64,000 nucleotides of DNA. It comes from Lama guanicoe (taxonomy: Eukaryota). The position numbers and the translations under genes were made by a program. The notes beneath the pieces were generated by a model. That model was not told where the DNA came from, made no database searches, and was given only the letters and a program-made list of their open reading frames with translations. Within the stretch, counting starts at the first letter, position 1. Each line of letters starts with the position of its first letter. Location: contig MU053431.1 of assembly GCA_013239625.1 (NCBI GenBank), positions 2,320,485 to 2,384,484 on the forward strand, read 5' to 3'. Shown piece by piece: positions 4,333 through 63,168 of the stretch.

Positions 4333-10732
<6,400 letters not shown>

Positions 10733-13208: not shown

Positions 13209-20032
<6,824 letters not shown>

Positions 20033-26110: not shown

Positions 26111-29100
26111 TCAGGGAGAGTGTGACTTCCCATAGACTTTCACCTCCGAGGCGGGGCCAGGCTCTGCTGGGCCTCACAGAGGTCCAGGAGTCAGGACCAG
26201 ACCGGGCAGCAGCGCAGAAGGTGGTGGTCTCCTGCGAGGGGAAGCAGGAGTCAGAGGTAGCCCTGCCTGCAGGAGGAGCGGCCCCAGCCCTCCGTCCCTG
26301 ACCAGCTCTCACCGATGCCACAGAGCCCCTCCTGGGCCCGGGCGAGGGCCATGGTCACTTGGATGGGGTCCGCAGTGATGCCCAGGGCGTTTTTCAGCCA
26401 GTTCTTAGTCGGTCGCGGGTCTATGTCACTCTTGTCACAGGTGCGGACCATGCTCACTATAACATAGTGCCACTGGCTCCCGTGGAGGCGAGGCGAGTCT
26501 GGTGAGGCCCCTGCCACCCACCCACCTGACCCCTCGCGCACAGGCCTCCCGCCTAGTGCCAGCCCCACCCTGACTCTTGGTGATGGAACACACGGTCACT
26601 CGTGGAACATCTTCCTGATGCTCAAGTCTCTTGCTGATCTCAGCCAGCTGGGCATTGTAGGGCGTGAGGATGGCAATGTTCTTGGGGCCCACTGTCCCCC
26701 TCAGAGGCAGCTCTCTGGCGATGCAGACCTGAGGGACCAGGGGTGCCGGTGAAGCCAGCCCTGATGTCTGTCCCACCCTGGGCTCCCTCAGCGACTCTGC
26801 CTCCTCCCCCAGGGAGCCCTCCCAAGCAAGGGGTACCAGGGAGGGCCCGGGGGAGGGCCGCCACCACTGCCATCTCCTCATCCTTCGCCTTGGAATCCTC
26901 ACCCTCTTTGTCCGTAGACAGCAGCCGGCTCTTCTGTTTGCTCTGCAAGTGGCCAGAGATGACCGAGCAGCCCTTCTCGTCAGCGTGGCCCAGGACACTG
27001 GGCGGCCTGCCCAGGCCCTGCCAGGTCTTCAGTTCCCTTTCGTAGAACTCCCCTGAGGGGAAGGCACAGATGCGCTCATGCTGGAAGGCAGGGACAGGAG
27101 TCAGGGCCAGGCTGGCCCTCGCCCACCTTGGGCCCAAGAGCTCTGGGCACTCAGCATGTGGTACTGCATGTCCCACAGGCAGGCACCCCTGAAGTACCTC
27201 TGTCACAGATACCGGTCCAGCCCCAGCTTCTGCAGCAGCTCACTCTTGACCACAGGCCGCAGCTGCTTGTGGTCCCCGAGAAGGACCACCTGGGAGGACA
27301 GGCAGGCATGGTCCTGACCCCTCGGCCAGCAGCGCCCCACCCTGGAGCTGCCCACGTATTCCCTGCACCTCTGCACCCCCAGGGACACACGCCTGGGCTC
27401 TCAGCTCCTGCTTTACCCACCTTCTCAGCCTGGGAGAAGTTCACCAGGGGAATGAGGGTCTCTGGCTCCGAGGCCACACCCGCCTCATCCGCAAGGATCT
27501 GCCGGATGTCCAGGTCCCCAAGGCTGGTGGAGCCCGCATGCCAGCACGTGCACAGGACGGTGCAGTGCCGGTCAAGCTCGAATTTCCAAGCCTGCCCTAG
27601 GACTTTCCTGTACCTATGGGGACACCATATGGTCGCCCAGGCTGCACCCCTGCACCCTAGGCCAGGAGGCAGCCCCATGGCTTCAGCTGCTTACCAGCTG
27701 AGGTCCTCCTTGGAGAAGATCTCCCCTTCCTGCAGCCGGGCACCGAGGCCCTGACGTCAGCCGCATGGGCGTTGGAAGACTGCCGGACCCGGTGATGCAG
27801 GGCGATGCTCCTGCGGCGGGTGGCAGTGAGAAGACCTGTGTGAAGCCGTGTTGGCTCCTGCCCGAGGCAGGGCCAGCTGGACAGCCCCCGCCCCTCGCCT
27901 CCACCCTGTATAGAACAACAGTGGAGAGGCTGCACCTGAGGGTCTGGCTGGGCCTCCCCACCTGAGGGGTCTTCTTAGGGGGCCCCTGCTGCCCACACCC
28001 GGCACTGGGCACTCAGTGGCCTCCTCCTGCTCCCTGTGCACGCGAAGGGGCTTCAGCTTTGCCCTCCTGCTCAGGAGAAGTGCTGGGGAAGCCAGGGTGT
28101 GAGTGACGGCTCCCGGACCCAGCTCCCCCGGGCAGAGCCCCTCCGGCTGCCCCGGTGCGCCTGCCAGCACGCCACCGACTGGTTGGAGGGGCTGCAGCAC
28201 AAGATGGGGGCCCCCACAGCTGGCCACTGTGGGAGCCATAGGCTGGCACCTGCTCCTCGTTTGACGTGCAAAGCCAGTAGGCAGTGTGGACACCCAGCAC
28301 CGTCTTCCCAGAGCCTGTGGGCAGAGCATGGGTTGAGCAGAGCCCCCACCTGCCTGCCTGGGCAGTCTCGCAGCTCCCCCAAGGTGGGTCCCCCCTGGTG
28401 GGCCCCAGATGACCGTGAACTGCTTCTTCAGAGCCTCCCTAACGGCCTTGTTCTGGCTTGGGTTCAGCTTGTGATGGCCTCCAGGAATGTCGAAGGCTGG
28501 TCATCCAGGAAGCTGCTGGGGGTCCCTGAGGAAGGAGGCAGACCTCTGAGGACTGGCCGGGGCAGGGCCGGAGAGGTGAAGCTGAGGGCTCCCCATCCAC
28601 CCACCTCTGTGGAGGGGCTGCTGGCTGGCCCTGGGCTATGCTGATGACCCACGGGGATGCACGCTTGAGCCAACGCACAGCTTCTTCTTGGCAGCTGGGG
28701 CAGGTGGGGGTGAAGATGGATACCAGACACCAGCAGGATCTTCCCGGGCAAGGAGCACTGCCCACGGGCCACCACCCCAGAAGGAGACGGGGGTTCCCAG
28801 CACACCCAGCCCACCCGCCAGCCTCTCCCCGGAAGCCACTCACAGGCCCCGGGCGGTGAAGCGGCCCCAGGCCTCAGCACCTCTTCCAGAACCACACCCA
28901 TGGCCACGTGCTGAAGGAGGAAGGGCACCTGCTTAGGTGCGTCCCGCAGGTTGGCCCAGCCCTCCTTTGGGCTCCAGTCCTCCGCCAGCCCGGGTGTCAC
29001 CCAGGTATGTGTGTCGGGGTCATTGTTTCGGACAGGGATGACGCAGCTGGCCGGGGGGCGTGGTGTGGCCAGCAGCCCTTCGAATCGGATGCACGGGTAG

Positions 29101-32100
29101 CAGTGGCCAAAGCTGATGTCAATGCCATGCTCCCGGAGGAAGGCGGGCTCCAGGCAGAAGGTGCCCTGCAGCTGCCCCTGGGGCGTCTGCTCCGCCCCAC
29201 AGGGTATGGCCACATCCTGCAAAGTCACAGGATCGTTCTAAGCCTGGAGTCGGCGCGGGCAGCCGACTCCAGGCTTAGTCTTCCACGTCCTGGTGCCAGT
29301 CCCGACCCCCCTGGGGCACACAGGGCGAGAAGCCGTCCCCTGGCTGCTCCACGTGCTCCAGGCAAAGGCTGAGGTCAGGCGCCACAGACCACAGCTGCGG
29401 GACTGGCTCCAGGAGCCTACGCTACAGGGCGGCACTGAGCTGGAGCTGTACGTGCAGTGTATCCCCACTACCAGCTCCCGGGCTGCCTCCACGAAGGGCC
29501 GCAGGCGCTCCACCTCGCCTGTCCCGGCTCCTGCTGCTGGGGCTCGAAGCTGGGCTCGCCCCACTGTCCACCCTCGGCTTCTTCATCAGCCTCAGCAGCT
29601 GCTGCCACTGGGTGGCGTCCACAGGCTGGACACATGGGTCAAGCGGGGTGCCGGGCAGTGGGGGGCACCGCCCACCGGCCTGCGTGGAGTAAGCGTGGTG
29701 CCGCCATAGGAGCTGCAGCTGCAGCCACCTGGCCAGCCACAGGAGTGCCTGGCCGGCCGCAGGGGTGCGTAGCCGGCTGCAGGGGTGCTTGGGTGGCTGC
29801 AGGGAGCTGCAGTGCACGGGGTCGAGGTCCAGAAGGGTCTTGTGGCTGGCTGGGAAGAACAGCTTGAAGCAGGTGTCCTCCGCGGCCACCACAAAGCCCA
29901 GCTTGCTTTGCGGTTGGGTCTTGAGCCGGGTGGCCAGGTTCAGGCCGCGAGCCCAGCGCTGGAAGTTCTGGGCGCACCTGTACTGGCCACTGAAGTCCTG
30001 GCAGAGCTCATCAATGTCTCCGGGCGTGCAGGGGGACCCTCCTTGGCCCAGTGCCAGCAGGATCTGCCGCTGCAGCACCACATCCAAGTACCTGCAAATG
30101 GGTGAGGTGGCCCAGGTGTACCTGTCCACCTGCAGCAGGTAGTGGCCATCCAGCTCCATGTCCTGGCGGCTGAAGACTGTGCGGCCTTGGGCCCTGCACA
30201 AGTCAAGGAGGGCAGGAGCCAGGCAAGGGTGCACATCGTCCGTGGCGATGAGATCCGCCAGTCAGATGAAGCCCTGGGCGTGGGCTGCAAGCTGGAGTTA
30301 CCTCTAGACGGAGACCAGGATGTGGAGCTGCAGGTCTGGGGAGATGTAGGAGCTGAAGCTGCCCAGCCGGTGGTGGCAGAGGTGTGGGGACAATGGCACC
30401 CAGTCCTCCTGGTCCTGGCTCAGGGCTCGGAGCCAGCTGAAGCTGGGCTCGCGCTGCACCCGCAAGGGTGTGACCCCCTTTGTACCCTCACTGTCCACCA
30501 GGAATTTGGCCACCTGGCTGTTGAACTGGACCATGTACTCCTCGACCATCCTGTGGGCCACGCGGAAGCCCAGCACGCTGTCCCCGTCAGCTGCTTGTAA
30601 TGACCGTCGCCCCTGAGGCGGCGCTGGCACAGCAGGCGGGAGAAGTAGCACGCGGCTGCCACGCAGGCGTGCACAGAGTCCAGGCAGGCTGGCAGCTTGA
30701 GGCCGGCGCCCCGGTGCCCCCGGTCACCTGCTCCGCCTCTGTACGGGTCAGCTGGTGGTCAGAGCAGATCACAGCGGGTGCAGAGCACTCGCTCTTGAGC
30801 TGGCTGCTGCCCTTCTCGGTCGTCAGGAAGCGGGAAACGGCTAGGTGGTGCTGGCCTGGCAGGAGGCTGGCTGGCAGCATGGACCCTGCTCCTGGTCAGG
30901 GGCGTAGATGGTGGCCCCCCCCCGCCTGCAGGCCTCCAGGCCCAGCGCCCTCATCCCTGGGCATGCAGCTGGCCATGTCAGCGGTGTGCGTGGCCACCTC
31001 ATACATGGGGCCCCGGTCCTGGGCGCTGATGGCGCCGTCCAGGTTGCAGGTGAGCGGGGGTCCACGGCGAAGGCCAGGAAGCTGCTGCAGCCCTCCAGGC
31101 AGCTGGGCGCCCGGCTGAGCTCAGCGTGGTGCCTGTGCAGCGCCTCGCGGACCGAGGCCGGGTGTGGGGAGGCTCCTTCAGCCTGCAGGCCAGGTCAAAG
31201 ATTTGGAGACTGCTCCCAGGTGGTGGCCTCGGGCAGCACCTTTAGGACGCCCAGTGGGTAGTAGAAGTGCTCCCGCCACAGAAGGACACACACCCAGAAG
31301 AGGCGGCAGTGCCGGGCCTCCACCGAGAGCGGCTCGTGCCCCACGCGCTGCACGCGGCCCTGCAGAAGGTGGTGGACAGGCACCTGCAGTGGGTCCTGCA
31401 GCCCAGCCACGAAGACCTTGGTGGCACAGCCATTGACGGGGGTCATGACGCAGGGGTCCCACTCGTCCACATGGCACACGAACGCCAGCTGGCGATGCTC
31501 CCTCTGATGAATGCTCAGCACGCAGCCCTGAGGCCACCCGGCCCAGCTGAGGACCTGCACCAGCGCCTCGTCCCCAGGGAATGCCATCCCGCAGTGCAGG
31601 CGGCCCTTGAGCTGGTTGGGCCCAAACTTCCCATCGTCCAGCGGACGCTCTCACCTCCCGGAGGCTCTCTCGCAGGAAGGCGCAGCGGCAGTGCTGCTGG
31701 GGCCACTTGTGGAGAAGTTTCTGCTGTTTGGCTTCCGGCAGGTTCACATACTGCCACGCCGGCTGGGGAGACAAGGGCCGGGCGAAGCTGTCCAGCAGCC
31801 CATCCTCCTGGACGGTCACTGTCACGTCCCGGCTGTGGTCCAGGAGCTGCTGCGGGCGGGGCTCGTTGCTGCCGAGCTCCCTGTCAGAAGGCCAAAAGCC
31901 CACAGGGCCCTCGGGCTCCCTGATCTCTGGGGCTGACGGTCCTGCCACAGCGCTTCTGGGGACCATGCCCCTCCCACATGTGCTGTGGCCCACCCCCCAC
32001 TACCCCCTCCTCTGGAACAGTGTCCTTGGCATCTGCTGCCACAAACCTTTCTGTTTCTTGGGCCGCAGGCTGCCAGCAGCTGGCCCAGCTCTGCTTCTGG

Positions 32101-35100
32101 ATCTGCTCCAGCGACAGGCCCTCGGGGCAGACGGCGCCGTGCTCCACACACTCACGGAGGAAGCTCCCCCAGAGCTTGCTGCAAGCCTTCAGGGAGCAGA
32201 GGGCCACAGCGTTGCCCACGCCGCCACCTGGGCCTGCGTGTGGGTCGTGACGGTGCTGAGCACGCGGGCGTCCGTGAAGCACCCTGGGGCCGGTGCCCCC
32301 GGCTCAGCAGGCTGCGGGTGGTGTGCAGCGCGCCCAGCACCACCACCAGGAAGACCCGCCTGAGAGGGGGGCAGTTACAGGGTCAGGCTGGGCCAGAAGA
32401 GGGAGGGGAAGGACGATCACCCACCTGGCAGATTCTCAAAGCTGCCCACAGACACCTGGCCCAGGTCCCTCTTCCTCAGCTCCTGCCTCAGCGCGCTCAC
32501 TGGAGACACACCACCAGGTCAGGTGAGGGGCCCCAATGAGGCATAGCGTCCCCTGCCAAGGACAGGACCCTGGCTCCCAGGTCCTGGGAGGTGAGTATCT
32601 GAATATCTCAGACCCTCGTATGGAAGGAAAGCAGACAGAGGAGGCCTACCAGGCCACAGGCGGAGGGAGGCTTCCCCGGGAAACGGGGCTTGGGGGAAGC
32701 TGCCCTGGGCAGCAGGGTCTCACCTGGGCCCTGTGGGACACAACGCGGTGCTCCTCTGCTCCCGGTGGCCCCAGCACTGGGGCCAGGAGTTACAGACCTC
32801 CTGTACCTTCTCGACAACCTGAAGAACCTCGGCTGCATTCAGCCAAGACGTCGTGGAGACGTCGCACTGGAGCTGCCCACCACGCAGCAGAACTGGAGCG
32901 GGTACCACCGGGGTGGCCAGGGATCTTGCCGCTGGCCTGGATGGAGCGGCCGCTGGCTAGGGAGACGTGGTCGGAGACAAAGCAGACAACGGTCTGGGTG
33001 GAGCAGTAATTCTTGTACAAAATAATGCAGCTCCTCTGGGCGACCTGGAGTGTTTGCTGCCAGTGGTGCTCGAAGAGGCGGTGCAGCAGCATGTCTGGCC
33101 CCCGGGTGCCCTACCACACTGAAGAGCCGGGGCGTGCCCTGCACGTGGTTGCCCGCCAGCACCACTCGGGTGCCGGGCGCAGCGTAACGCAGCGGGGTGA
33201 GCGTCTCCCACTCCAGCATCTGGGAGGCCTGGTCAATGAGGATGTGGGAAAAGAAGCCAATGGGCACCCCGAGCTCGTGTGTCTGGGAGGTGCTGGCCAA
33301 CACAATGTGGTGCCGCTCCAGGTCAGCAGGCGAAAGGCCTGGTGGTCCTCGGTCAGGCAGCAGTACCTCAGCGTGGCCGCGTCCGTCAGGCTGGGCGGGC
33401 AGTCCGTGTGCACCACCCAGAGGGGAGCGGCCTCAGGGTGACTGCTGCTGACGTAGGGGCGGAAATACTCCACAGTGTAGGTGTCAGCCGCCCTGTGGTG
33501 GAGAAGGGCACAGCGCCTGTCTGCTAAAGTGCCTCCCGTGCTTCCCCCCTGCCCAGACAACAGGCAGTCCGACCCTGCAGCAGAGGGGACAGACAGAGAA
33601 GCAGGAGGTCAGTGCCCGATGAGAACCAGACAGCAGCAGAGCCCTGGGGAGGGCGCAGCATGGGCCGGGCCACCAGGGCGGCCCGAGACTGGGTTGACCC
33701 TGAGCAGCCAGGGAGTAGCAAGACCTGGCACCACCTCTCCGAAGGAGACAGGACCACCAGCTAGGGCCTCTGCCTGACATGGGCCCCTGGAGCCCCAGTC
33801 CTGTAACCAGTCAGCCCTGGCAGAGATGGGGAGCCCCGTGCTGGAGCAGCTGTCCATCTAGGGGGAACTATGACAGGATTTTCAGAACACCCAAGTCTCG
33901 CCCCAGGAAATGCTGGGGTGGGGGTCAAGCCACAACCCTACCCACCACTCTGCCTGGCCCATGTTCCTCTGTGGACAGGAGACCATGCACCGGGCTTGAA
34001 GCACAGGCGTCCCCTGTCCTCAGCCCGGTACTGACTGTCAGGGAGACTCTCAAGTGGCTGGGACTGGCCCCAGGGGCTTCACTGCCACCAGCCCAGCCCC
34101 CACCCTCTCCTGGAACTAGCTGCTGAGATCTCCAGTGAACCTGGGAACCAGCCCGAACCCCAGACCCCCAGGTCCCTCCTCTTCTCCTGGGGCGAGGCCG
34201 GGGAGCGGGGAGAGCAGCCCAGCGGCCCCAGCTCACCTGTTGGTTCGTGTACAGAGGAGCACCTTACGAGGGGCTGGCAGGCGACCTCCAGGGAGGCCAT
34301 GGCCAGCGTGTAGGTCTTGCCCGTGCCAGAGGGGCCACAGACGAGCAGAGGGGCAACAGGCTGCCCCTACCCCAGGGCTGGTCCCTGTGATGACCGCCAC
34401 AGCCTGCTTCTGCCTGCGGTTGCCCTGCAGTGTGGGTGAGACAGGCTCAGGGCAGGGCAGGGTGCAGGCTGACAGGTCAGGAACCACCAGGCCCTCCTCT
34501 GGCAGTGCGTCCACTGCCCGGTGCCAGAGGTGGAAGGGCAGCAGATCAATCTGGAACTGCACTTCCAAGATGGGGCGCCCAGGCTTGGGCTGTAGCCCCA
34601 GGGCTGCGCAACAGTGGGCAGGCAGCAGCAGCCACAGCACCTGCCCCGAGTTGGGCCGCGTCTCCACCCGCACCCCGCACACCCTGGGATCAGGCCCAGG
34701 CACGGGGGCCACGAGCGCCTTCTCAGCAGAAAGCCCTCGTCCACGTCAGGCATCGAGGAGGGGATGGGGGTCTCAGTGTACAGGGCTCCCCGTGGCGGCA
34801 AGAGTGTGTCCAGGACTGACGTCTCCTGTGCTGTCCGACAGTTCAGCCTAGGGGGAGAACATGGGTCGGCTGACCAGGCCCACGGTGCTGCAGCGGGCAC
34901 CAGGCAGCCCCTGCCCCCGCCGGCCCCACTCACTTGGCCACCGGGTGTCGCTGAGCAGCCTCCTCCTCACACAGAGCCCAGTGCAGCTTCTGCCGGGGTC
35001 GGTGGGAAAGATGGGGCCCTGGTCAGGGGACTCCAGGGCTGGAGCAGGCCCCGTGGACTTGGCCACCTGGGCACCGCCATCCTCTCCAAGCCAGGCACCA

Positions 35101-37424
35101 CGTGGCGGTTGCCTATGTTCCAGCGGTCCGGCTCCTCAGGGAGGTGGCCAGGTGGGCGTCGCCCACGGCCCCGGAAGTGCTCCCAGCCCACCTGCAACTC
35201 CAGCTTCCTAAGCAGCACCGGCCGGCAGCCAAAATCAAAGACCACCCATTGCTCGAAGGTGCCTGGGGAAGCGCTCTGCCCGAGCACCCCACCCGGAACA
35301 TGGCCAGACAGCCGGGCACGCAGAAGTGCTCTCTCTGGGCAAAGACCCGGCCTGTTGAGAGGCTGGGGGCCACCGTGAGAAGTCTGCTCCAAGGTCTTGC
35401 TTGAGCAGGGCTACACATCGCAGGGGCTCTTGGGGCAGAAGATGGATGGTGAGGTGGCCCCTGGAATCCACCCTGCCCATCAAGGTCCAGGCTGCAGCAC
35501 TGACCCCTCCCTTCCCTCCTGGCTGTGACCCCAGCAGGGCCCTTGGCCTCTTTGAACCATGAGGCTTCCTCTGCAAGATGGGGTCACTGAGCCAGCCTGG
35601 ATAGCCATTGTGGCCCAGGTGATGGGGGCAGTGTGGGGCGCTCAGTGGGGACCAGCCCAGCACTCCCTCTCTGCACCAACCCCAGCGGGAGACACAGGCT
35701 TGCTTCAGATCCCAGACTCAGGAGAGGCTGCCCAGGGCAGAGCTCCGGACCCCAGACCCCAGCTGCCCCCTGACTGTGCAGCTGCTCACCTCAGAATAGA
35801 TGTTGAAGGTCTAGGCGTGCGCCGCCTGCCGTTCCCAAGTCCACCGCACCAGGGGCCGCTTGCAGCCGACAGATACATGGTCAAGGGTCTCGGCCAACTG
35901 CCCAGGAAGCCAGGGGTCAGCAGGGCAACCCTGGGTCAGCTCTGCCCCCATTCTCACAGCCCCCACTTACCACCAGTACCTCACCGGCACTGTCCTGGCA
36001 CTCAGCCAGCAGCTTCTCGCAGTGAGACCCCAGCCCATCCTGCCAGGCCGCTGACCACCTCAGCTTCACGGTCCAGAATTCTGGGTCCACTCCTGCAGCT
36101 CTTGCTTTGCACCTTGTTTCAGAAGTCCCCGAACTCACAGAGGCTGGGCCTGGCGGGAGCGGGGGTGATCAGCAGGCCACACGGGGGTGAGGGCCCTCAG
36201 CCCAACACTGACCCATCCATGTTGGGGAGCAAAGCTGATACCAGGCAGAGGGCAGGGAGCACCCCCATCCCACCCACTGCTGCACACCCAGAACCCGGCA
36301 GGAGTGGCCTCCGTGGACCCCCCTTCTCCACCCCTCAGAGGCCACACAGAAGACAGGGAATCCTGGTTCCAGCTGAAGGGGGTTCATCCCCCATCCCCAA
36401 ACCCCGCTTTCCTGTCCTTACCGCAGGCAGAGCTCCAGAGGGGCGAGCCCAGTAGGCAGGCTGTGGTGCTTCGAGGGCACGACTAGTTTCGATTCCAGTA
36501 TCTGTGCATGCTCCAAGGAGGAGCAGTGGTTCTCGGAGGCCTCCTGGGAGTGGCAGGTGACAGGCAGGCATGGCAGTCCAGCTGGACTCTGGGGCGCTGC
36601 CCATAGGGGGCTGTGTGCCCATCCCCACTGAGGGCAAGGGCCGTGAGCAGGCCCTTCCAACCGAGCTGGGCCTCCCACACAGGCACCTCCACAGTGTTGT
36701 GATCACAGCGGCGGCGGGACATGCCGTGCCGGCACCAACACCCTCGCTACACGCATTCGCAGTAGGCCAGGGGCCGGTGGCCCCAGACATCTACCTGCAC
36801 CACCAGGACTTGTTTTCGACAGCCCCCCGTGCTCACATGAGCCAGGAGAGTGGGGCAGTTCCCATGATCGGGGCACCAGCCGTGGGGCTCCACTGGACAG
36901 ATGTGCGGGGGGCGGCGCTGGAAGCAGGGAGAGCGGAGTGTCTGGAAGGGGCCACCAAACTCCGCGAGGATGGCATCAGCCGGGGCCAGCGGCTTCCCCT
37001 GGGCCGCGCCGCTCTGCGCCCCCACCTTCACCCACAGGTGGCCGACGTTGTGCTCGAGCTCAAAGGGCCAGACTAGCGCCCCCTCGGGGCTCCTGGCGAA
37101 GGTGCACCGGTTGCCGTGGCGCCTGCAGCCAAGCCCCGGGCTGTAGTAGCGGCAGACCTCACCGCGCACAGGCTGCGGGAAGCTGGGCGGGCAGTCCACC
37201 TTGCGCTAGACACTGCTCTCGGAGGCTCTCTTCAGGCGGGCCAGCAGGATGTCCCAGGCACAGCTGTGCTCCACCCTGCTCTGCAGATAGGTGCTCTCAC
37301 TGAGATGTGGGGTGCAGCAGGAGCAGGCCAGACACAGGTCCACCAGGGCGCACAGGCTGGCCGGGGACGGCTCCTGGGTGGCCTTGGGGCTGGTGGGCTG
37401 TGTGCCGGACCCTGGCAACTCCAT
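26111..37424 (-). pseudogene. HELZ2: Helicase with zinc finger 2 (PRIC285), intron-containing disrupted gene at the syntenic position
   Basis: HELZ2-like fragments in order but in shifting frames: LCALVDLCL, CRRHGNRCTFARS, FEQWVVFDFG, GPSGTGKTYTLAMAS, RNB pieces (HRMVEEYMVQFN, YTWATSPICRYLDVVLQRQI), DEAGVASEPETLIPL, VLLGDHKQLRP, ITKSQG, ARAQEGL. In-frame stops at 37206-08, 36747-49, 36119-21, 35811-13, 27203-05, 26191-93; many frameshifts; broken splice sites. Confidence 0.92.
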
Positions 37425-51988: not shown

Positions 51989-54900
51989 CTACTTGTGCTC
52001 GTGGCCCTCTGCCATGGCGGCCACCTCGATGGTGGCTGTGTGCTCCTCGGGCCCCGGGGCGGCCACGGCACTCTCCATTGCCCCCGTGGGCACTGTCACG
52101 ATGGTGCTGCCCCCGGGTGACACCTGGGCCACGTTCTGCAGGGTGGGGCCCAGGCCGGGCAAGGTGAGCAGCTGCAGAGGGCTCACAACCTTGACCACAG
52201 TGCTGCCATCCTGCATGGCGGCCGTACTCAGGACCGTGAGGCTGGAGGCGTCCGGGTGAATCTCCACCGTGTTGGGGAAGGTGGTGCCTGAAGAGGCCAG
52301 TACCGTGTAGCCCCCCAGCAGCGGCGAGGCGGGGGAGCCGGCCGGAGCAGCCTGGGGGGCAGCCTTGCCCAGCACGGGGGAGGGTAGGGTGGACACCACT
52401 TTGCCCAGGGGCACGCCGGCAAGCTGGGAGACGGGCACGCCCGGGGTCAAGGCGATAGGAGCAGACTGGGCAAGCACCTGCGAGGCGATGGCAGCCGGCC
52501 CAGACGTGGCCCTTGCAAGCCGGGGCCGCTTCACTGGGGGCGGCAGGGAGACGGGCGTCAGCGTCATGAGCACGTTGCTGAGGTGCTGGGACTTGTGCTT
52601 GAGCTCCTTGGCGCGGCGGCGGTGCTCGTCACACTGCTGCTCCAGGGCTGCGGGGACAGGGCGCGGAGTGACTGTGGGGACGGGGGTGGGGGCGTGACTT
52701 GGGGGACGCGGACAGGGACAGGGTGCAGGCGTGATCACGGGGCCAGGGTGTCCTGGGGGGCAGCAGACCACACACAACCTGCCCTGACCAGGCCTGTGCG
52801 GACTTGGTGTCTGACCGCCCCATCCCTACGGTGACACCCTGTCCTGTCCCCGCAAGTCCCCTGCAGTGACGCTCTCTGAGGGCCAGTCTGATGGGGACCT
52901 GCCGCTCCACGGAAGCGTGAATGCGTCTGAGGCAGCACCTGCCAGCTGCCCGGCGTGGGGACAGCCTTCCCTGTCCTCTGTAATGCCTTCTGCCCTCCTA
53001 ATGTCTGTGTGGGAAGCTGCTCTCATGACGTGTTAAGACACGGAGATCACGACAGACACGTAACCTGCCTGCCTCACACACACCCACAGGCGTGTCCCCA
53101 GTTAGGCGCCCCAGGAGCGGGGAGGGAGGCACAGTCTTGCGGGTGAGCCGTGGGGCTGCAGTGCATCCAGGGGTGGTCTGGCGAGGGTCGTCACGGTGTC
53201 AGCAAGCCGGGTGCCCCCAAAGCCCCCTTGGGAAGAGTGCTCCCATGCAGCGGTGCCAAGGGCCCGCAGGGGAGACCAGCATACCTGCCAGGTCGCGGGC
53301 GTACTGCTCCCGCGAGCGGTCCATCTGGCACTTGTGGCTGGCCAGCACCTTCTTCACCAGATCCAGCATGCCGAAGTTCTGCACGATGTTGTTGAGAAGA
53401 ACGGCGTCTGGTGGGGGGTGGGGGGTGCGCACGGTAAGGACGCCGCCTGCAGCAGGCCTGGGGGGCACCGCGCGGCCCCGAGGCAAGGAAGGGCCTGGGG
53501 GGCGTGGGCTACCTGCCCCCCACCCCCCACCCCCCAAGCTGAGGTGGCTGGGCTCAGCTCTGAGCCGGGAGGAACAGGCTGCAACCATGGGCCCCCCACC
53601 CCGCGCAGAGCAGACACGGCCCCTCACCTCGGAGCTGCAAGGGAGGGTCCTGGACCCGCTGTTGCAGGCCCTTCATGGTCTCCAGCAGCTCCTGCTGGAA
53701 CTCCTGGATGACCTCGTCCAGCAGGCCAGCATCCTTGAGCCCTCGCCAGAAGGCAAACGTGTCATCTGTGAGAGAAGGAGGGGCTCAGAGACGGGGGCCT
53801 GTACTGGCAGCCCCCCGCAGGCTCAACCCCAGGGAGGAACAGAGAGCCGTCTGGAGGACGAGGCTCTGCGGGCAGCAGTGTCCCCGTGATGACAGGCGGG
53901 AGTCCGGTGGGTCGGCCAGGCGGGAGACGGCATTGAGCACGCCTCCAGACACTAGGACAGTTGCTAGTGCCCGGCCCCGGGCAGAGACCCCACAGGCCCG
54001 TGCCTCCACCGGGAGGGCTCTGCACGGCCTTGCCCCAGGGCCCTCCACCGAGAGAAGCTGCAGGAAGGGCCCCGTACCTCCGATGGCCGTGGTCCAGTCC
54101 CCAGGGTCCTCACAGGTCTCTATGGTGATGGTAGCGGGAGACCCGTTCACTGCAACCAAGACGGGACGGCGTGAGCCTCTCTTGCGATGGGCCGGCATCC
54201 CCCTCACTGCACCCCAGCTCGAGACTCTCCTTCATCCCATTTTCACAAAACTGCCGGACGTGCACGAGCGCGACAGAGGACTCACGTGCCTCGGGTTCTG
54301 GGCTCCCCCTTAGGCACACAGAGGAGCAGGCACGCCCCAACCCGCCAGTCTGCTCAACGCCCCGCCGCTCCTGTCATGCCGACAAGGAGCTGCTGCACCC
54401 GCCAGCCGGGGCCACAGGGTGGCCTTCCTGCCAACCTGCTCTCAGGCCTGCGGCCTGGGCCCTTTGCATCTGCCTCACCGACACCATCGTCCACTGGGGC
54501 CACTACCACGCTTCCATTTTTGTAAAGCCCCAGAAGTGGGACGTGGACCGCTGTATGCCACCCAGAGGTTCACCTCTGACCCCGTCTCTGGCGTCTGCAG
54601 AGCCCTGGACACGGTTCGGATTTGGACACTTGGGGCTTAGAAATAAGCCCAGCAACACAATGTCCAGGTAGACTTTTTGGCCTCTCCCACAGCTGACGGC
54701 GGTCCTGCCAGGGGAGGCCAGATGCTGGGAGTAACTCTCCTAGTTTGGGCTCACAGGGAACCTTCACGCTACAAGTGAGTCTGCGTTCTGAGGACCCCAG
54801 CTGAAGAAACCACCACGTGGGTGAGTTTAAGAAAAGCAACAGACTCGTCCAAACCATCGCGGGATCACAGGGTTCAAAGAGCTAAATCCCAAACCCTCTA

Positions 54901-57900
54901 CCAGACACAGCACCTGAGGTGTGAGAACCCGGTCCCTTCCGGGAGGTGGGTCACCGCGGACGCCTTCTGTAAGGCAGAGCAGAGTCTGCACCCTGAGGAG
55001 GCCCTGTTCTTGCGGAAGCCACCAGCCCACCAGGAGTGGGATACGCATCTCCTGGTGTCTTCTGGGGTTGGGGCCTTGCCATGACCCAGCCCCACCCACA
55101 CTGCCTCGTGCAGTCCCAGGGGCCAGACCAGGACCCAGACCACTTGCAGACAGTGACCACTGGATGAGCAACGGGCCGACGAGGGCTAGGCCCCAAAGCC
55201 AGTAGCCTGCGTGTCCCTGGAAGGATGCCACGACGGGGCCACTGCCAGCCAGGCCGCCAGGCAGGGCGTAGCGACTGCACAGGGGATGAAACCCTGGCCT
55301 CACCTATGCCCCCGGGTCTCCCTCACCATCCTCCCAGGTACAGGGCAAGGCGCCTCGACCAACCACCGTCCAGTCTGCGATAAGGACGGCCCCTGGCCAC
55401 ACGGCAGCAGGCCCAGACTGGCCGTGGGGTCACAGCGCAGGGACACTGTGGCTCCCATCTTGGGAAGCATGGCCCCGCCCAGTTCTCAGTGGGCAAAGCG
55501 AACAGGGGCCTCATTTCATTCCAACTGCAGTTTTAAAAAGAATCTCTACTCAAAACCCTGGAAGAAGTTCCAGGGAGTGTTTAGTCCTTCCACACTTCAG
55601 AGCTACGGACACCAACACAAAAGAGTGTCACACATGCGTCAGCAAACGCAAGCGGCAGGGAACACTGAGCGGGAGCCTGGCCACGCAGGCCTGCGGCCCC
55701 AGGGCGAGGACGGAGGGCAGGCCGGGCGCTGCCCGTGTGGCCGGAGCAGGGCTGGGCCCTGGATGCTTGCCTGGTTCTTCTTTGTACACATCTCTACACA
55801 CGAACAACTGTATCTTACAATGAGAATGGCTTAAAAGGAGACCGTGCTTCAACCTTCCCTGTGGAGGGAGCTGCCATTCAGCCAGACTTCCTCGGTGGGG
55901 AAGAAGGAGGTGGCCACTGACCCCTGGGGCCCAGAAGGGACACTGAGTAGGTGGGGAGGCCCCGCTCAGGCTGGCAGCAAGGGCCCAGCACATACCATCG
56001 GCCGTGGCGGGTGTGAGAGGGATGTACTCGGCTGGCGTGGGGCTGCCCAGGGACGCACGGGCCCCTGAGAGGTCGATCTTGGTACTGCGGCAGGTGTTGG
56101 AGCAGACCCTGTCGTGCTGGTAGAAATCCAGCTCTCCGGAGTCCATGATCTTCCTGTGCAGGCGAGGGGACGAGAGCTTCATGGGGGGCCCAGGCGCAGC
56201 TGGACGGCCTATGTGACTGGACAAAGATGCCCCCCTCACCCCTGCCCACAGGCATGTGCTCAGATCCGCGGAAGGAATGGGGGGGCCTGACCTGGGCAGG
56301 TCCAGGGTGGCCTCTCCAACACCCCAGCCCAGCTCCCTCAGCCAGCCGCCCTGGCCATCTGCGTGGCTCTGTGGGAAGTGGGACCATAGTGGCTGGTGCC
56401 CGAGGGAGACACGAGGCTGTCCTGGAGGTGCAGTCAGCACTGTGGGGGCTGGGCAATCCCCCGGGATGCTCTGCTGCCTGCCGGCCCCAGGGACAGCCCC
56501 AGGGCTGACAAGGTGTGGATGACAGCAACCCTGCCCAGTGCACAGCTGGAGAGGTGGAAACCTTCCACCAGCACCCCGGCTCCTCACTGCCCAGAGGCTG
56601 CATCACGCCCGCACCTGCCCCGATGGCCTCCCTGGCCCTCCTCTGCAGCCTGGCCCAGAGGTCCTGGATTTAAGTCCAGTGTCTCAGCTCATCTGCCCTG
56701 AGCTGCCCTGGGGCTCCTGCCACCCTCAGCCTCTGGGCAGCGTGACTGCATATGGGTGGACACACTTCCCAACTGTGCTCTTTCAATGAAATGGCTGCGG
56801 CTAGGCCACCGAGACACTCAAGATTGGTGAGCAGCGCCTCGAGTGCAAGGCCCCGGGCCAACAGGAGGGCGCAGGGCGGCTGCTCCAGAGGGAAGCTGGA
56901 GTGGGGAGCTGCAGGGTGCCCAGGGTGTGCTCCCTGAGGGCAGAAGACAGCTGGGTGCCAAACATGCCTGCGGACGGCAAGAAGCCACTCCTCCCAAGAA
57001 CAAATGCACAAAGGAGAGGAGCAGAGCAGCCCCCCAGCTGGGCCAGGCCCCGTGAGAACCAGCAGCCCCGTGCACAGCCGCACAGAGGGCCCCGGTCAGA
57101 GGTCTGGCTCTGGCCGAAGAGGAAACGTTAACATGGGGAAACGAGGCGCTACTATTCCAGGGGCCGTCCACTCAAAAGCTCAGTTTGTCCTCAGGCTTCT
57201 TGGAAGGGGCACCACCCCTCGTGTCTCATGGGCGCAGGGAAGCAGTCAGAACCCCCCCACAGGAGAGCCCGAGCAGGAAGCCCCAGACCTCAGACTCCAC
57301 GTCTGTGTGCGGTGGGTGGGGGCCGGCCCGACGCTCCCCACAAATCCCGAATCAACCTCAGCGGGAGGACGAGGTGTCGGGAGAGAGCGAGAACAAGACC
57401 TCGGCACCCACAAGGGCCAGCACGCCTGACTCCAAAGACAGGGAGGTTGGGGCTCTGGGCCGAGGCCCCCTGAAAGGTCAACGTCACAACTGTCACAGCA
57501 TCACACAACAGTCAGCCTGGTGCAGACCAACATGGCCAGGGAGCACAGACGTGGCCCCGACGGGCCCCTTGCCCGGCAGACTGGCCGTCCAGAAGGGACA
57601 GTGACTGAACAACGGGCCAGACTAACGCACCGCAGCTTAGACGGGGCATGCTCTCTACTGGGATCCAAGTTTGGTGACGGTGGTGGAAGAGACGAGCTCG
57701 CTGCGCCTGCAGGGGACGCACGGGTGGGACGCACTCACAGCAACCTGTGGGTTTCGCACGCCCACTTCAGGAAGTAGTACAAACCAACAAGGCATGGAGG
57801 CTACACTGAGAGATCAGGCCCAGGTGCCTCTCCGACGTGCAAAGGCCATACGGCAGCACTTACGTTTCACTGGGAAACAGCTGCGAGTGCTTCTGGTAAA

Positions 57901-60900
57901 GAGCTGGCGGATGTCAAACTGAGACAGAGGCCCTTGCAAGCCTGACACGGTCGCACGCTGGCAGAGGTGTGGGCCGTTGCAGCCCCAGGGATACTGTCCG
58001 CGCTCCTCGTGGGTGCAGCGCACCTCACGGGGTCAGCTCTTCTGCATTGGCCCCGCCCCACCCACCGCCCCGCCCCACCCTGCCCACCTGAGCATGATGC
58101 CGTTCATGCGGATGGCTCGCTTCCAGTCCTTCAGCGTGGACTTGCCCGCCAGGTGCACAAATTCCTTGGGGCTGATGACATGCTCGTCGTACTGAGGGTA
58201 GAAGAGCAGCCAGGGTCAGGACGGGCCCCACCACCCTCCTCACCAGCCTGGTCCCCCGTCCAGAGCCGGCCCCGGCAAAGGGCACCACGCAGGCCGCAGG
58301 CCGCTCTCCACCTGACACTCAGGATCCAGCACTGGTGACTGGTGGGCAAGAGCACCCCGTTGAGACCAGCCCAGCCGGCATGCAGTGGCCACAGCGGGTG
58401 GCCAGGTGCCCAGCCCGGGAGAGAGCTGAGTGCTTGGCGGCCTCCCCAACAACACCCCTGGGCCCAGCACTGGGGAGGGCAGAGGTGACCACATCACTCA
58501 GAAAGGCATGGCACACTCCCCCTCCAGACAGCACCCAGCAAAGCTCCTGACGCGTAATTTAGCCCAGATGGGCACACACATCACACTGGGCGCGGGGCGA
58601 TACAACGCACCCACATCCGGCAGCTGCGGACGTCCCCTCGGCCGCTGCCCCGGCCCAGCAGCACCCGCCATCACGGAAGCACACATCATTTCAAAGTCAG
58701 GGAACTAAGAAAAGAAACGCTGACATACTGAGGAAGTCATTCTGGCTTATTCAGTTGTTCCCTTAAACTTGATGCTAACGAAAACAGCCTATTGTGACCC
58801 ATCAAGCAGGTATTACACGTCCGCTTTATTATTACAGAAAAGAGCGCACTGACCAGAAGTAAAGAATGCCCATGTTAAAAGTAAAGGTTCAGTGCCCCGA
58901 TCCTGGGTGCCAGCGCCAGTCCTCTCTCGCCAACGAGCCTCCCGTCCCGGGTGCCGAGGCCACGCCGTGCGTGCAGCACGTGCTGGGCTGCTTTCTGAGA
59001 CCTCGAGGAGATGCGTCCTTGGCTTGTCTGATGTCCCCCGTTCTGACGGGACACGAACCTGTGCTGGAGGCCCTGCTTCTCAGGAGCAGCTTCTCGGTCA
59101 CCTGGGGAGCAGCTTCTGGGCTAGTCCTCCATTTGGCTCAAATGAAACTCTTTTCTCTTCTTCTTGTACATTGATGATTCTCAACACAGCTGCCCTACCC
59201 ACTCACAGGGTTCTGCCGGTTTCCCCCAAAGGTGCAGCACAGACGGCCCGAGAAGGTGAAGCGTCCTCTTCAACCTTGTTAAAGACCCGAAATAAAACTG
59301 CACTGTCTCAGAAAACAAGCAGGAGGGGCTGGACGAGTCCCCGGTCTCAGCAGAGGCAGAAACCAAAGTGCCACCTGTGTCCGGGCGCCCTGCTGGGTGA
59401 GCCCAGGTCAGCCCAGATCACTGGCCAGGGGAGCAGAGCCCTCGGTTCTCAGGCGGGTCACACTGTCCTCGTCACGCCACACAGATGCAAGGGTTTTACA
59501 CGCTGAAGGTTTGCTGCAAACCTGTGTCGAGCAAGTCTCTCGGCACCATTATTCAGCAGTGTTTGCTCAGTTTGGGTCTCTGGGTCACAATTTGGTATTT
59601 CTCACATTTCTACCTTTTTCATTACTATTATATGTGTTACCGTGATCTGTGATCAGTGACCTTTGATGTTACCACTGTGACTCGCTGGAAGCTCAGGTGA
59701 CGGTTAGCATTTTTTTAACAATAAAGCATTTTTAAGTTGAGGTATGTAAACTGGTTTTAGTCGTGATGCTATGACACCATTAACAGACTACAGTCCAGTG
59801 TAAATGTGGTTTTTATACGTGCAGGAAAACCAAAACGTTTGTGTGACTCCCTTTATTGTGACAGTGGCCTTGTTAAGGTGGCCTGGAACTGAACCCACAG
59901 TGTCTCCACCACACTCGGTCTCAGCAAACGCGACCCACCCAGGAACCCTCTTGATGGACGTGGTCGTCCTCATTTCCAGAGCACCTGCCTGCGCGCTGAG
60001 TCAGGAAGCCACTCCCTCCCCTCGCTCAGCTGGTGGGGAGATGGCCCAGCCCAGGCAGGTGGAATTGAGGACCTCCCTGGCCGTGGCCCGAGCACACAGG
60101 TGCGCTGGTCATGCCCCCTGACCTCCCTGCCCCGTGGCATGTCGAGCCTCCCGGGACGTGCATCAGGGCCAGGAGGAGCCCCTGCCTGCAGACTCACCCC
60201 GCCTCCTGCCACCCCGAACCCTGGACCACCTTCCCTCTGCCTGAAATCATTTCTGAGAACATCCCTAGTTATGCCTTGCTGGTGGCAAACATAGTTTTGT
60301 CTGAAAACGTCTTCATTTCCCCTAATTTTTGAAGGTGGTTTCACCGCGTGTGGCTGACCCAGCACTTCTAGGGCCTCAGCTGCGGGGGAGTCTTCTCTTG
60401 GCAGCTCCAGCGTGGCGGTACCTACGGTAAACCTCTGGGCTCCTGCCCGCTGCTCTGCTGGGACTCCCCCCTCTGCAAGGTGGGACAGCACAGGGCCACC
60501 TTGAGACACTTGCGTGAGCTGCTGAGTCTCGCCTTCACTCCTGAGAGCAAGGCTCCCATGAACATGCACGACTCTCAAGGCCAGGAAATTACTGCTGACG
60601 CAATGCTGTCTAACCCACAGGCACTGTTCCAACCTCACCAACCGTCCCAGTGACAGGCTCTGTGGTGACATTTCTCTCTGAGCAGGACCGCACGCCACAC
60701 TGGCTGCCGCATCTCTCCTCCTCGAACCACACGGCTCCTCAGCCTGCCCACGTCCTCCTGACCCCGACGTCGTCCGTGAGGCACGTGGGCCAAGGTCTTG
60801 TAGACAAGAAGCGTGTCCCTCAGTGTATCTGATGCTTTCCCTCAGTGGAGCCAGGCTGTGTGTTTCGTCAGGAGCGCAGAGTCCTGGCCACTCCATCAGG

Positions 60901-63168
60901 AGGCCCGAATGTCGTCCATCGTTTGGGGAGCGATCTGCCGGGCCCCACCAGTGTTCTGGAAGCAGGACCTTCGTGACGGGGACACCCTGAGACAGCCATT
61001 CCTCGGCCAGCTCCCCGGACGTCCGGCTCCAGCGCCTCCTCCACGGTAGTCAGCTGGCACACGTACTGATGTCACAAGCAGTGAAACACGATGCAATAAA
61101 CGAGGGCTCGCAGATGCTGCTTCCACCCGAGTCACAGCCCACGCTTCTCGCTCACCACTCTGACAGTGAAGTGTCTCAAGCAGCCAGGGGAGGTCCTCCG
61201 GGCTGGCACCTACACAGCTTTCTGAGTAGCTGGTTTCTCTTCATTCACTCAGTCTGGGATGTCAGACCTCTGTAGGCCTCTCTCCTTCCGTGGTTATGAG
61301 AGCCCTCAGCCCGGGGACGTCTCGGGGGCTGGTACTCTGAACAAGGTCCTCACGTCTGTCTTCCAGTTCACTAATCATGCCTTCAACTGTGTCTAACCTG
61401 CTGGAAAATCTATCCACCTAGGGCTCAGTTTTAACTTTTTTCATTTCTAGTTTGTTCTTCCAAATCTGCTCATGCTTTACTCATGTTTGAGCCTCTCTCT
61501 TATTTCTTGAAATAAACACAATTGCTTTATATTCCATGTCTCAAAACTCCAACCTGCAGCATTTGTGTGTCTAATTCTGCTGCCTGCGGTTCCTGTGTGC
61601 ACTCAGGCTCTTGCTTCCTTGTGTGCTCAGGGCTTTGTTTTGTTTGACTGTGTGCTGCTCCTTTTCTTGGAACTTTGTCTGCTAAAATTACCTGAAACCT
61701 GGGATAAAGATGAGTTCTTCCAAAAAGGACTTTTCATTTGCTTCTGTCAGATCCCTGGGAGAGCTGCCAGCCAGGACCCACTTACACCTACACGCTCGGC
61801 CTAAGTTTTCAGACTGTACAGGCCACGTGTGAAACCTCAAGGGGCCCCTGTCCGCCCGGTGCTAAGACATGAGAACATTTTCCTTGTCCTGGGGAACAGA
61901 GGGGCTGGGAGGACATGCGCAGTGGTCACCCAACACTGGAGACCTTTGGAAGCAGCAGCGTCACAGAGACCATCCCCGCCCCCAGCTTGAGGAGGCATCT
62001 AGAAGGTGCTTTATGAAGACACCTCAGGTAGCACTGCCGGGTGCTTTCAGAACACGGTGAGTCTGGACACCTGAGCCACAAGTGGCAGGAGCACATCCTC
62101 CCCTTCATCCTGCTCCCAGCTGCTAACCGCCCAGCCACTCACCCTGCCCGACAGCCACCACCAACCCCAATCCCAGCAAGAACAGAGCTGCCTCCTTCCC
62201 AGCCTCTCTCCACAGCTTCCCTCCAGGAACAGATCGACGTGCCCTCAGCGAAAACCCTGTCTGTCCTTGGAGGCTCCGCCCTCTCCCCTCTGCTCTCCCA
62301 GGCATAGGATTTGGGCCTTCTCAACCCCTACCCCGCAGGCCACCCCCCAGAGGAGGGGTCTCCTCTCGTTTTCTTTTCTTCGCACTGCAGTTCGGGGAGG
62401 CTCCCTGCAGCCAGCCACGCGCTCGGTTTGGCTGCATCAGACCCTCACCTGCACACACTTCACGTTGATCCCAGGACACACGAACTTCCTCCAGATGAGG
62501 TTGGCCCTGCTGTCCCCGCAGGTGATGGGGTACACGATCTCAGCCTCCAGGCCTTCCTCCTCCTCAGCCATCTTCACTTCTCAGAGGTGCAGAGGCAGGG
62601 AAGGGGCAAGACAGAAGATCAGTCACAACTTCCCCAAGCACTTCCTGCAGGGGCACAAACCTAACTACCAACCTGCAAACCAGGCATCACAATCCGGGAA
62701 GGACTGAGACAGGACCCGGGTGGGCAGGGCCACGTCGCATCAGCCCAAACTACAGAGCCCCAGAGGAAACAAACTGCCTGCAGTGACTCCAGAGAAACCT
62801 ATTCTTAGCATTTTGGTGAGTTCTGAGGCCTTTGATGAGGCAGCAGCAAAGGACCAAGGGTGAGAAAGAGTCCCCATGACCACTCACAGATGGCGCAGTA
62901 CGGAGAACCGCAAACCTGCGCTGGCCCCTCACCCCAGGCCTCCGGAAAGGAGCCGCACGAGGGCCCCGGGGACCTCGATGGTCAGCCTGCAGCCAGGAGG
63001 ACCACTGCCTTGGGAAAAACTGTCTGCAGAGATGCCAGCAGGCCCCGCGGTGGGAAGGCAGGCTCCCTACCTAACACGGCTTCCTTGAGCTGTGAGGACG
63101 CAGTGAATGCAGCTGCAGCAGCCGCCGCTGCATTTTCTGTCTCCATGTTGTCTTCTGTCAGGTCACCC
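51989..63168 (-). CDS. GMEB2: Glucocorticoid modulatory element-binding protein 2 (SAND/KDWK domain); partial, start lies beyond the window
   Basis: Exons 63168-63071, 62576-62449, 58191-58088 (KSTLKDWKRAIR), 56153-55996, 54149-54078, 53765-53628, 53407-53285, 52647-51989 (...AMAEGHEHK*). All GT-AG, consistent phases, no stops. Confidence 0.96.
58690..59187 (+). mobile_element. Solo LTR (MER34/MER39-like) in a GMEB2 intron
   Basis: 3' end ctagtcctccatttggctcaaatgaaactc...ctcaaca parallels the end of the LTR at 45913-46359 (atcctcaatttggcccaaataaaatt). 5' boundary uncertain. Confidence 0.5.
59440..59915 (+). mobile_element. Internally deleted Tigger1-type DNA transposon
   Basis: Tigger1-like left part (tgaaggtttgctgcaaacctgtgtcgagcaagtct) joined to right part (gttagcattttttt...cagactacagt...gtgtgactccctttattg...ggaactgaaccc). 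Confidence 0.75.
60230..61780 (-). mobile_element. Patchy, old antisense L1 fragments
   Basis: T-rich stretches such as gtctgaaaacgtcttcatttcccctaatttttgaagg and tcttccagttcactaat...tgtgtctaacctgctg. Confidence 0.4.

What the first reader, a model, noticed from the sequence alone, without database searches (positions are those of the whole stretch)
26111..37424. HELZ2, an interferon-stimulated RNA helicase/exoribonuclease, appears lost as a unitary pseudogene in this (probably camelid) genome
Seen: at least six in-frame stops, frameshifts in most exons I traced (three in exon 34847-34237 alone) and broken splice sites, with introns retained and the gene in its normal slot between FNDC11 and GMEB2. 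The ~4.2 kb of PPDPF, PTK6, FNDC11 and GMEB2 coding sequence here has no such lesion, which argues against assembly noise. Known: HELZ2 is an interferon-induced UPF1-like helicase with an RNB domain, a PPAR coactivator, with reported antiviral and LINE-1-restricting activity. Inference: a long-standing lineage-specific loss that could matter for innate immunity (camelids host MERS-CoV) and lipid metabolism. I cannot tell whether this loss is already published.
Basis: partly seen in the sequence, partly recalled or inferred. Interest (0 to 1): 0.85.

Follow-up and report, generated by a model that had tools for sequence, protein, structure and literature searches.

The report
Dead antiviral helicase gene in camelids
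The antiviral RNA-unwinding and RNA-degrading gene HELZ2 is wrecked here by about 40 stops and frameshifts, several shared with Old World camels, so it likely died in the common ancestor of camels and llamas, after its two helicase motors had likely begun to decay in the ancestor of even-toed ungulates, which would leave the pig copy as a predicted nuclease-only enzyme.

Summary
Window 26111-37424 (minus strand) is the single HELZ2 locus of a probable South American camelid. Six intact orthologues agree on 9 stops; 31 frameshifts recur in at least 5 of 6; three splice sites are broken. Five neighbouring genes (5.6 kb) are clean. Camelus ferus and dromedary gene models share a stop, three frameshifts and a dead donor, so these are not assembly noise and predate the roughly 16 My split. 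New here: pig HELZ2 is also eroded (63 of 621 otherwise invariant sites; 21 identical to the camelid change), and pig, peccary, vaquita and camelids all lack a conserved helicase-2 arginine. Likely history: relaxation on the artiodactyl stem, then separate losses. A cetacean loss is already in a supplement (PMC7498332). I found no camelid loss in print, but TOGA/Zoonomia tables were not seen. Ruminant loss is only suggested. A MERS link is unsupported.

The parts
26111..37424 (-). HELZ2 unitary pseudogene: 19 former coding exons, about 8.4 kb of former coding sequence, introns kept
   Evidence: collinear with 2,900-2,960 aa orthologues over their whole length
36422..37424 (-). First coding exon (zinc-finger region); stops at 37208 and 36749, frameshift near 36563; a 72-codon ORF precedes the first stop
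35790..36149 (-). Coding exons 2-3; frameshifts near 36124 and 36074, stop at 35813
34934..35429 (-). Coding exon 4; AA acceptor, four frameshifts (35375, 35280, 35074, 34997)
34237..34847 (-). Coding exon 5 (helicase 1 Walker A); three frameshifts (34723, 34370, 34270)
32724..33492 (-). Coding exon 6 (helicase 1 Walker B, DE changed to DQ); five frameshifts
28840..32359 (-). Giant coding exon 8 (helicase 1 motif VI, OB folds, RNB nuclease); at least 12 frameshifts, 4 stops; helicase 1 motif VI Arg to His near 32242, shared with pig; RNB DD changed to DG with a frameshift inside the catalytic loop near 31050
29545..29600 (-). Frameshift shared with Camelus ferus model EPY87819.1
   Evidence: the camel model runs from the wrong frame into the ancestral frame without an intron
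29728..29767 (.). Tandem 20-nt duplication inside the former coding exon; copy number differs from the Camelus models
28393..28394 (-). Broken splice donor (GG)
   Evidence: 6 of 6 references
28160..28180 (-). One-base deletion at 28172 and GC donor, both shared with Camelus ferus model EPY87818.1
   Evidence: the camel model reads the same shifted frame through the donor
27740..27752 (-). One-base deletion near 27746, shared with Camelus ferus (inferred from the model's residues)
27203..27205 (-). TGA stop not present in Camelus (Trp there): a later lesion
27153..27154 (-). Broken donor (CT) shared with dromedary and wild camel; the helicase 2 motif IV Arg just upstream is His
26481..26482 (-). 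Broken splice acceptor (CG)
   Evidence: 5 of 6 references
26191..26193 (-). TGA stop shared with Camelus ferus: model EPY87818.1 ends at exactly this codon
23133..24134 (+). FNDC11, intact single coding exon (downstream neighbour, control)
   Evidence: gene name recalled from the sequence
13209..20032 (-). SRMS, open frame over 8 exons (control)
   Evidence: gene name recalled
4333..10732 (-). PTK6, open frame over 8 exons (control)
   Evidence: gene name recalled
1781..2497 (+). PPDPF, open frame over 4 exons (control)
   Evidence: gene name recalled
51989..63168 (-). GMEB2, 8 coding exons, open frame (upstream neighbour, control)
   Evidence: gene name recalled

Best explanation
This is the only HELZ2 locus found in the genome, broken by about 40 stops and frameshifts, some shared with Old World camels, so it is a unitary pseudogene that likely died early on the camelid stem and would yield no working protein. 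Shown: the lesions, their sharing with Camelus models, a single locus, clean neighbours. Inferred, step 1: selection on HELZ2 relaxed in the ancestor of all even-toed ungulates, most strongly on the helicases. Helicase 1 lost its motif VI arginine (pig and camelid share His). Helicase 2 lacks its motif IV arginine in every artiodactyl sampled (Cys in pig, peccary, vaquita; His in camelids). Inferred, step 2: the weakened gene was then lost separately in camelids and in whales, probably also in ruminants, while pigs kept an open frame with the RNB active-site aspartates. Inferred, step 3: any transcript would stop after 72 codons and be a nonsense-mediated-decay substrate, so camelids would be natural HELZ2 knockouts.
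For: Lesions. Controls. One locus: three own-genome searches gave strong matches only here (7 of 7, 4 of 6 and 1 of 1; the other two matches are 28 bits). Not noise: 20 runs from 9 studies and 4 organism labels hold 0.93-0.95 of 692 sampled words over 28800-35400; if all 28 robust lesions there were errors the ceiling would be 0.877 (binomial P 1e-5 to 1e-9). Shared with Camelus: stop 26193, frameshifts near 29565, 28172 and 27746, CT donor. Neutral since the split: window versus dromedary differs at 32 of 425 in-frame and 6 of 89 out-of-frame or intron-derived codons (P=1.0), and at 14 of 237 conserved versus 16 of 186 variable sites (P=0.34). Old: 43 of 237 conserved sites carry shared camelid changes against 9 per lineage since the split; crude neutral-equivalent stem time is 45-136 My against about 40-44 My available (dates from PMC12127551). 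Stem relaxation: of 621 sites invariant in 47 non-artiodactyl mammals, the window changed 145 and pig 63, against 0-24 for intact species; 35 sites changed in both (14.7 expected, P=5e-9), 21 to the same residue; no control species shares more than 1. The tree joins pig and window (support 1.0; stem 0.10, pig 0.22, window 0.46). Pig changes are enriched in the helicases (42 of 328 versus 30 of 454, P=0.004). Among 157 long HELZ2 proteins only the 11 pig entries lack the two arginines (143 and 138 keep them; 3 and 8 did not match the pattern). Dolphin and killer whale losses.
Against: Most frameshifts are short deletions, the commonest long-read error type. The 58-mammal screen included alpaca and Bactrian camel yet listed only dolphin and killer whale for HELZ2. 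The alpaca annotation used in PMC10873959 treats HELZ2 as coding (p.Cys1440*). Camelus, vaquita and peccary evidence comes from predicted protein fragments, not DNA. Stops are somewhat fewer than the missense spectrum predicts (6 versus 10.5 at conserved sites, P=0.10), which fits a spell of relaxed-but-open evolution and a later death. Ruminant loss rests on absence only. The own-genome searches score only the best candidates and the assembly has 55,231 contigs. Long-branch attraction could add to the pig-window grouping, though identical shared residues argue against that.
Confidence: 0.88

Rival explanations
1. Assembly noise: the gene is intact and the lesions are sequencing errors in a GC-rich region.
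Against: 0 lesions in 5,632 nt of equally GC-rich neighbours; word share exceeds the all-errors ceiling; independent Camelus assemblies share a stop, three frameshifts and a dead donor; 145 of 621 invariant residues are changed between the breaks.
Confidence: 0.02
2. Camelid-only loss of a gene that was fully constrained until then; the pig changes are independent or adaptive.
For: Pig keeps a full-length frame (2,847-2,902 aa models, no X, no out-of-frame window) and HELZ2 is listed as differentially expressed in virus-infected pigs (PMC6719071). CpG decay can give parallel Arg to Cys or His changes; the motif IV residue differs (Cys versus His).
Against: 21 identical pig-camelid changes at invariant sites, many of them not CpG-type (F>L, C>W, Y>S, E>Q, T>S), against at most 1 in controls; G2782S in all five artiodactyl sequences and N2833H in pig, peccary and vaquita; cetacean loss.
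Confidence: 0.15
3. A duplicate died while a working HELZ2 copy survives elsewhere in the genome.
For: Fragmented assembly; searches give floors, and one search used a stricter first look.
Against: The locus sits in the orthologous slot with introns; queries from three parts of the gene hit only this locus; no long camelid HELZ2 among 82 and 120 listed database hits, only 312-542 aa fragments.
Confidence: 0.02
4. The locus survives as a short or non-coding functional unit, for example a zinc-finger or helicase-2 fragment, or a regulatory transcript.
For: Gene predictors build 312-542 aa models from the remains; exons 14, 16 and 17 have no stop or frameshift.
Against: The models use intron and out-of-frame sequence and diverge at the neutral rate; the zinc-finger exon has two stops; all domains carry 19-27% change at invariant sites.
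Confidence: 0.05

Closest known systems
Human and mouse HELZ2 (PRIC285/PDIP1): interferon-induced 3'-5' RNB exoribonuclease with two UPF1-like helicases (PMC10516660, PMC9839780; passages read)
   Same: Same locus, domain order and exon series; 58-62% identity after reading through the breaks.
   Different: No open frame; Walker B of helicase 1, an RNB aspartate and both gamma-phosphate arginines are altered.
HELZ2 erosion in dolphin and killer whale (PMC7498332, one supplement row)
   Same: Same gene lost in another artiodactyl lineage.
   Different: That list names no camelid although alpaca and Bactrian camel were screened; no lesions, dating or mechanism are given; whether any lesion is shared with camelids is untested.
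Other losses of interferon-stimulated genes in artiodactyls: DDX60 in ruminants (PMC7498332 table), IFIT2/IFIT3 in cetaceans (PMC5747502)
   Same: Unitary loss of an antiviral RNA-acting gene in a large mammal clade.
   Different: Here the decay appears to start on the stem of the whole order, with one lineage (pigs) keeping a partly degenerate protein.
UPF1-like SF1B helicases (UPF1, PDB 2xzo)
   Same: Horse HELZ2 helicase 2 aligns to UPF1 (E 2e-41), including QYRMH (motif IV) and NVA.TRA (motif VI).
   Different: Artiodactyl HELZ2 lacks the motif IV Arg in helicase 2; pig and camelid lack the motif VI Arg in helicase 1. That these equal UPF1 R703 and R865 and are needed for ATP hydrolysis is recalled; the paper was not held.

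Membership tests
HELZ2 orthologue | Zinc fingers, SF1 helicase, OB folds, RNB, second SF1 helicase, in this order | tested here: met
   Collinear alignment to horse P0018 over its whole length; Pfam on P0018 gives AAA_11/12, OB_HELZ2, RNB
HELZ2 orthologue | Position between FNDC11 and GMEB2 | tested here: met
   Both neighbours spliced in the window; the human gene order is recalled
HELZ2 orthologue | Groups with artiodactyl HELZ2 in a tree | tested here: met
   Pig plus window clade, support 1.0, 29 sequences, 2,081 columns
Unitary pseudogene | Inactivating lesions across the coding region | tested here: met
   9 stops in 6 of 6 and 31 frameshifts in at least 5 of 6 references; 3 broken splice sites
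Unitary pseudogene | No working copy elsewhere in the genome | tested here: met
   floors only, in a fragmented assembly
Unitary pseudogene | Introns kept (not a processed copy) | tested here: met
   18 introns recovered at nearly the same places with all six references
Unitary pseudogene | Lesions fixed in the lineage | tested here: met
   Five lesions shared with Camelus models; word share in 20 runs. Not checked base by base in reads
Unitary pseudogene | Neutral evolution | tested here: met
   Protein-level proxies only; dN/dS not run for lack of orthologous DNA
Unitary pseudogene | No protein made | not testable with these tools
   No RNA or peptide data examined
Functional HELZ2 enzyme (this locus) | Open frame with Walker A/B in both helicases and the RNB aspartates | tested here: not met
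   First stop after 72 codons; helicase 1 DE to DQ; RNB DD to DG plus a frameshift
Interferon-stimulated gene (this locus) | ISRE near the promoter and induction by interferon | tested here: inconclusive
   GAAANNGAAA (pattern recalled) has 4 matches in the window, none between 32.1 and 46.3 kb; the promoter was not located
Active UPF1-like helicase (pig HELZ2) | Motif IV and motif VI arginines present in each helicase | tested here: not met
   All 11 pig entries have His at helicase 1 motif VI and Cys at helicase 2 motif IV; Walker A and B are kept. Activity untested

The most novel reading that the evidence does not exclude
Both helicase motors of HELZ2 were disabled in or soon after the ancestor of all even-toed ungulates. 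The gene was then lost at least twice (camelids; whales, with or without ruminants), and pigs keep a nuclease-only HELZ2 that has regained the canonical catalytic aspartate. Cattle, sheep, camels and whales would all be natural knockouts of a factor that unwinds structured viral and LINE-1 RNA, and the pig protein would be a natural separation-of-function enzyme.
Probability: 0.5. Interest if true: 0.7.

Novelty: new member of a known kind. Interest (0 to 1): 0.52.

Why it matters
HELZ2 is interferon-induced from fish to human, degrades structured RNA with its helicases and nuclease together (PMC10516660), restricts LINE-1 mainly through its helicases (PMC9839780) and affects fat metabolism in knockout mice (as cited in PMC10516660). 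A whole mammal family living without it, and an order in which it has been decaying for about 60 My, gives natural knockouts and a candidate helicase-dead variant in a farm animal. It also corrects annotation: a published alpaca study lists a HELZ2 stop codon as a high-impact variant (PMC10873959), which is meaningless in a dead gene. Gene losses of this kind are common in mammals, so the surprise is moderate.

Tried and rejected
Laying public contigs on the locus gave no result, so read-level confirmation is open. No RNA holder listed; this says nothing on expression. Two metagenome scans for host DNA of other mammals found nothing (21 and 288 pattern matches, none confirmed), so no ruminant or whale DNA and no dN/dS. 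A taxon control through a neighbour's protein cluster failed because the exact sequence is not held. Literature: ten searches. HELZ2 with pseudogene (29 papers, 28 listed), gene loss (5, 4 listed), camel (11, 10 listed) and cattle (9, 9 listed) showed no report of a camelid loss in titles or abstract starts; some searches were swamped by papers without HELZ2. Supplements of PMC6760925, PMC6386725, PMC5865188 and PMC12127551 hold no HELZ2. TOGA/Zoonomia tables, NCBI and Ensembl gene status and bioRxiv supplements were not seen and may already record the loss. The UPF1 structure paper was not held. The Atlas look-up returned nothing usable. Rejected: processed pseudogene (introns kept), a MERS-specific adaptation (age, no evidence), pig model hiding frameshifts (no low-identity window). 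No fold or complex job was run; it would not change the answer.
Full report
What is there. The stretch 26111-37424 on the minus strand aligns over its whole length to mammalian HELZ2. A window fragment retrieved 82 HELZ2 proteins, and tblastn with them gave a collinear chain of hits that changes frame inside exons. No spliced aligner was available, so I wrote one and ran it with a 21-sequence profile and six single references. Each gave 10-12 stops and 33-37 frameshifts at 58-62% identity. Nine stops recur in 6 of 6 references; 31 of 43 frameshift clusters recur in at least 5 of 6. Three splice sites are broken and two are unusual. Ten of 19 coding exons have a frameshift and 14 have some lesion; the first stop comes after 72 codons. 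Helicase 1 Walker B reads DQ, and the RNB loop has lost an aspartate and carries a frameshift.

Is it real? PPDPF, PTK6, SRMS, FNDC11 and 8 GMEB2 exons (5,632 nt) splice into open frames with no lesion (names recalled). Twenty public runs from 9 studies and 4 organism labels hold 0.93-0.95 of 692 sampled words of 28800-35400 (one may be the source). The 28 robust lesions there touch 12.3% of words, so they cannot all be errors, though up to about half could be. Stronger evidence comes from other assemblies. Camelus ferus model EPY87818.1 ends at exactly the stop at 26193, reads the shifted frame at 28172 through the GC donor, has the residues expected from the deletion near 27746 and reads through the CT donor. 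EPY87819.1 passes from the wrong frame into the right one near 29565 without an intron. Dromedary KAB1262407.1 shares the CT donor. Other lesions are later: the stops at 27205 and 29277 are absent in Camelus. Three own-genome searches found only this locus.

Which animal and how old? The remains are 87-94% identical to dromedary at protein level, and four organism labels share nearly all words, which points to a South American camelid (inference). Window and dromedary differ equally in the ancestral frame (32 of 425) and in out-of-frame or intron-derived codons (6 of 89), and equally at conserved and variable sites: neutral since the split, given as 16.3 My in PMC12127551 (passages). Shared camelid changes at conserved sites (43 of 237, 6 also in pig) far outnumber later ones (9 per lineage). 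A crude conversion gives 45-136 My of neutral decay on a stem of about 40-44 My, so the gene probably died early. A mild stop deficit (6 versus 10.5, P=0.10) leaves room for a relaxed but open phase first.

The wider picture. With pig HELZ2 as query, the best 120 of 346 hits run through 88 placental clusters to marsupials and birds, and pig is the only named artiodactyl; the unnamed clusters place with bats, rodents, primates, horse, shrew and hedgehog. This is absence only. Rabbits, xenarthrans, tree shrews and moles are missing too, and an alpaca model known from PMC10873959 (passages) did not appear, so corrected models may be left out. I took 48 of the first 88 proteins (2,850-2,980 aa) and used the 47 non-pig rows, which are not independent. 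Of 621 unmasked invariant sites the window changed 145 and pig 63; ten intact controls changed 0-24. Thirty-five sites changed in both pig and window (14.7 expected), 21 to the same residue, 10 of them in helicase 1; the ten controls with five or more changes share at most one. The tree gives pig and window a long common stem. Pig changes are enriched in the helicases (P=0.004), and pig's RNB Pfam score is as high as horse's (191 versus 184) while its helicase scores are lower (204 versus 256). Among 157 long HELZ2 proteins only the 11 pig entries lack the helicase 1 motif VI and helicase 2 motif IV arginines. The first change is shared with the window; the second position is lost in pig, peccary, vaquita and both camelids. 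Alignment to UPF1 places them in QYRMH and TRA; their role in ATP hydrolysis is recalled. The only vaquita and peccary hits are 308 and 285 aa degenerate models. Pig also has the canonical RNB aspartate that human replaces with asparagine.

What is known. Human HELZ2 is an interferon-induced exoribonuclease whose helicases let it degrade structured RNA; knockout mice live and resist diet-induced obesity (PMC10516660, passages). Its helicases, chiefly the second, are needed to restrict LINE-1 (PMC9839780, passages). A 58-mammal screen lists HELZ2 as eroded in dolphin and killer whale only, with alpaca and Bactrian camel in the panel (PMC7498332, passages and supplement rows). A multispecies interferon study names HELZ2 as induced in human, rat, horse, dog, two bats and chicken (PMC5747502, supplement rows); its other three species are recalled to be cow, sheep and pig, and unnamed gene ids could hide it. 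A pig study lists HELZ2 as differentially expressed (PMC6719071, table). Ten searches and four further supplements gave no camelid loss; TOGA tables were not seen.

Verdict. A real, old unitary pseudogene shared by all camelids sampled (confidence 0.88), best read as the end point of a relaxation that began on the artiodactyl stem. The kind of event is known and a cetacean instance is in print. The camelid case, the stem relaxation and the predicted helicase-dead pig enzyme are what I could not find described. Interest 0.52; the MERS link should be dropped.

Noticed in passing
P0086 and P0134-P0146 (pig HELZ2 models): Pig HELZ2 has lost a conserved arginine in each helicase but has the canonical RNB aspartate (DLDD); all full-length models printed start without Met, recalling the non-AUG start in humans.
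   Followed up: partly
one search hit list: No long HELZ2 from ruminants, whales, hippo, rabbits and pikas, armadillos and sloths, tree shrews or moles among 88 placental clusters; further losses are possible, or a database gap.
   Followed up: no
P0295 (Catagonus wagneri model, 285 aa): The peccary fragment has Trp for the helicase 2 motif VI Arg and a degenerate motif V, so HELZ2 may be broken in peccaries as well.
   Followed up: partly
window 14523-14893 (SRMS exons 4-5): SRMS has an open frame, but exon 4 seems to start about five codons late, exon 3 is about four codons short against the recalled human protein, and the exon 5 acceptor is purine-rich with an in-frame alternative 27 nt upstream; possible weak splicing.
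   Followed up: no
window 38400-48000: The interval upstream of HELZ2 is lower in GC, has no CpG island and holds LTR-like repeats by eye (related 60-nt blocks at 38447 and 42496); the HELZ2 promoter and first non-coding exon were not located.
   Followed up: partly
window 29728-29767: A 20-nt tandem unit inside the former RNB-side exon differs in copy number between the window and the two Camelus models; a possible lineage marker.
   Followed up: partly
PMC10873959 Table 1: A 'high impact' HELZ2 stop (p.Cys1440*) in suri alpacas lies in what is a pseudogene; the annotation used evidently corrects the lesions.
   Followed up: no
P0264, P0342: Two HELZ2-like database proteins are heavily shifted towards F, L, V, W, Y, as expected from C-to-T converted (bisulfite-type) reads; artefacts, not genes.
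   Followed up: no
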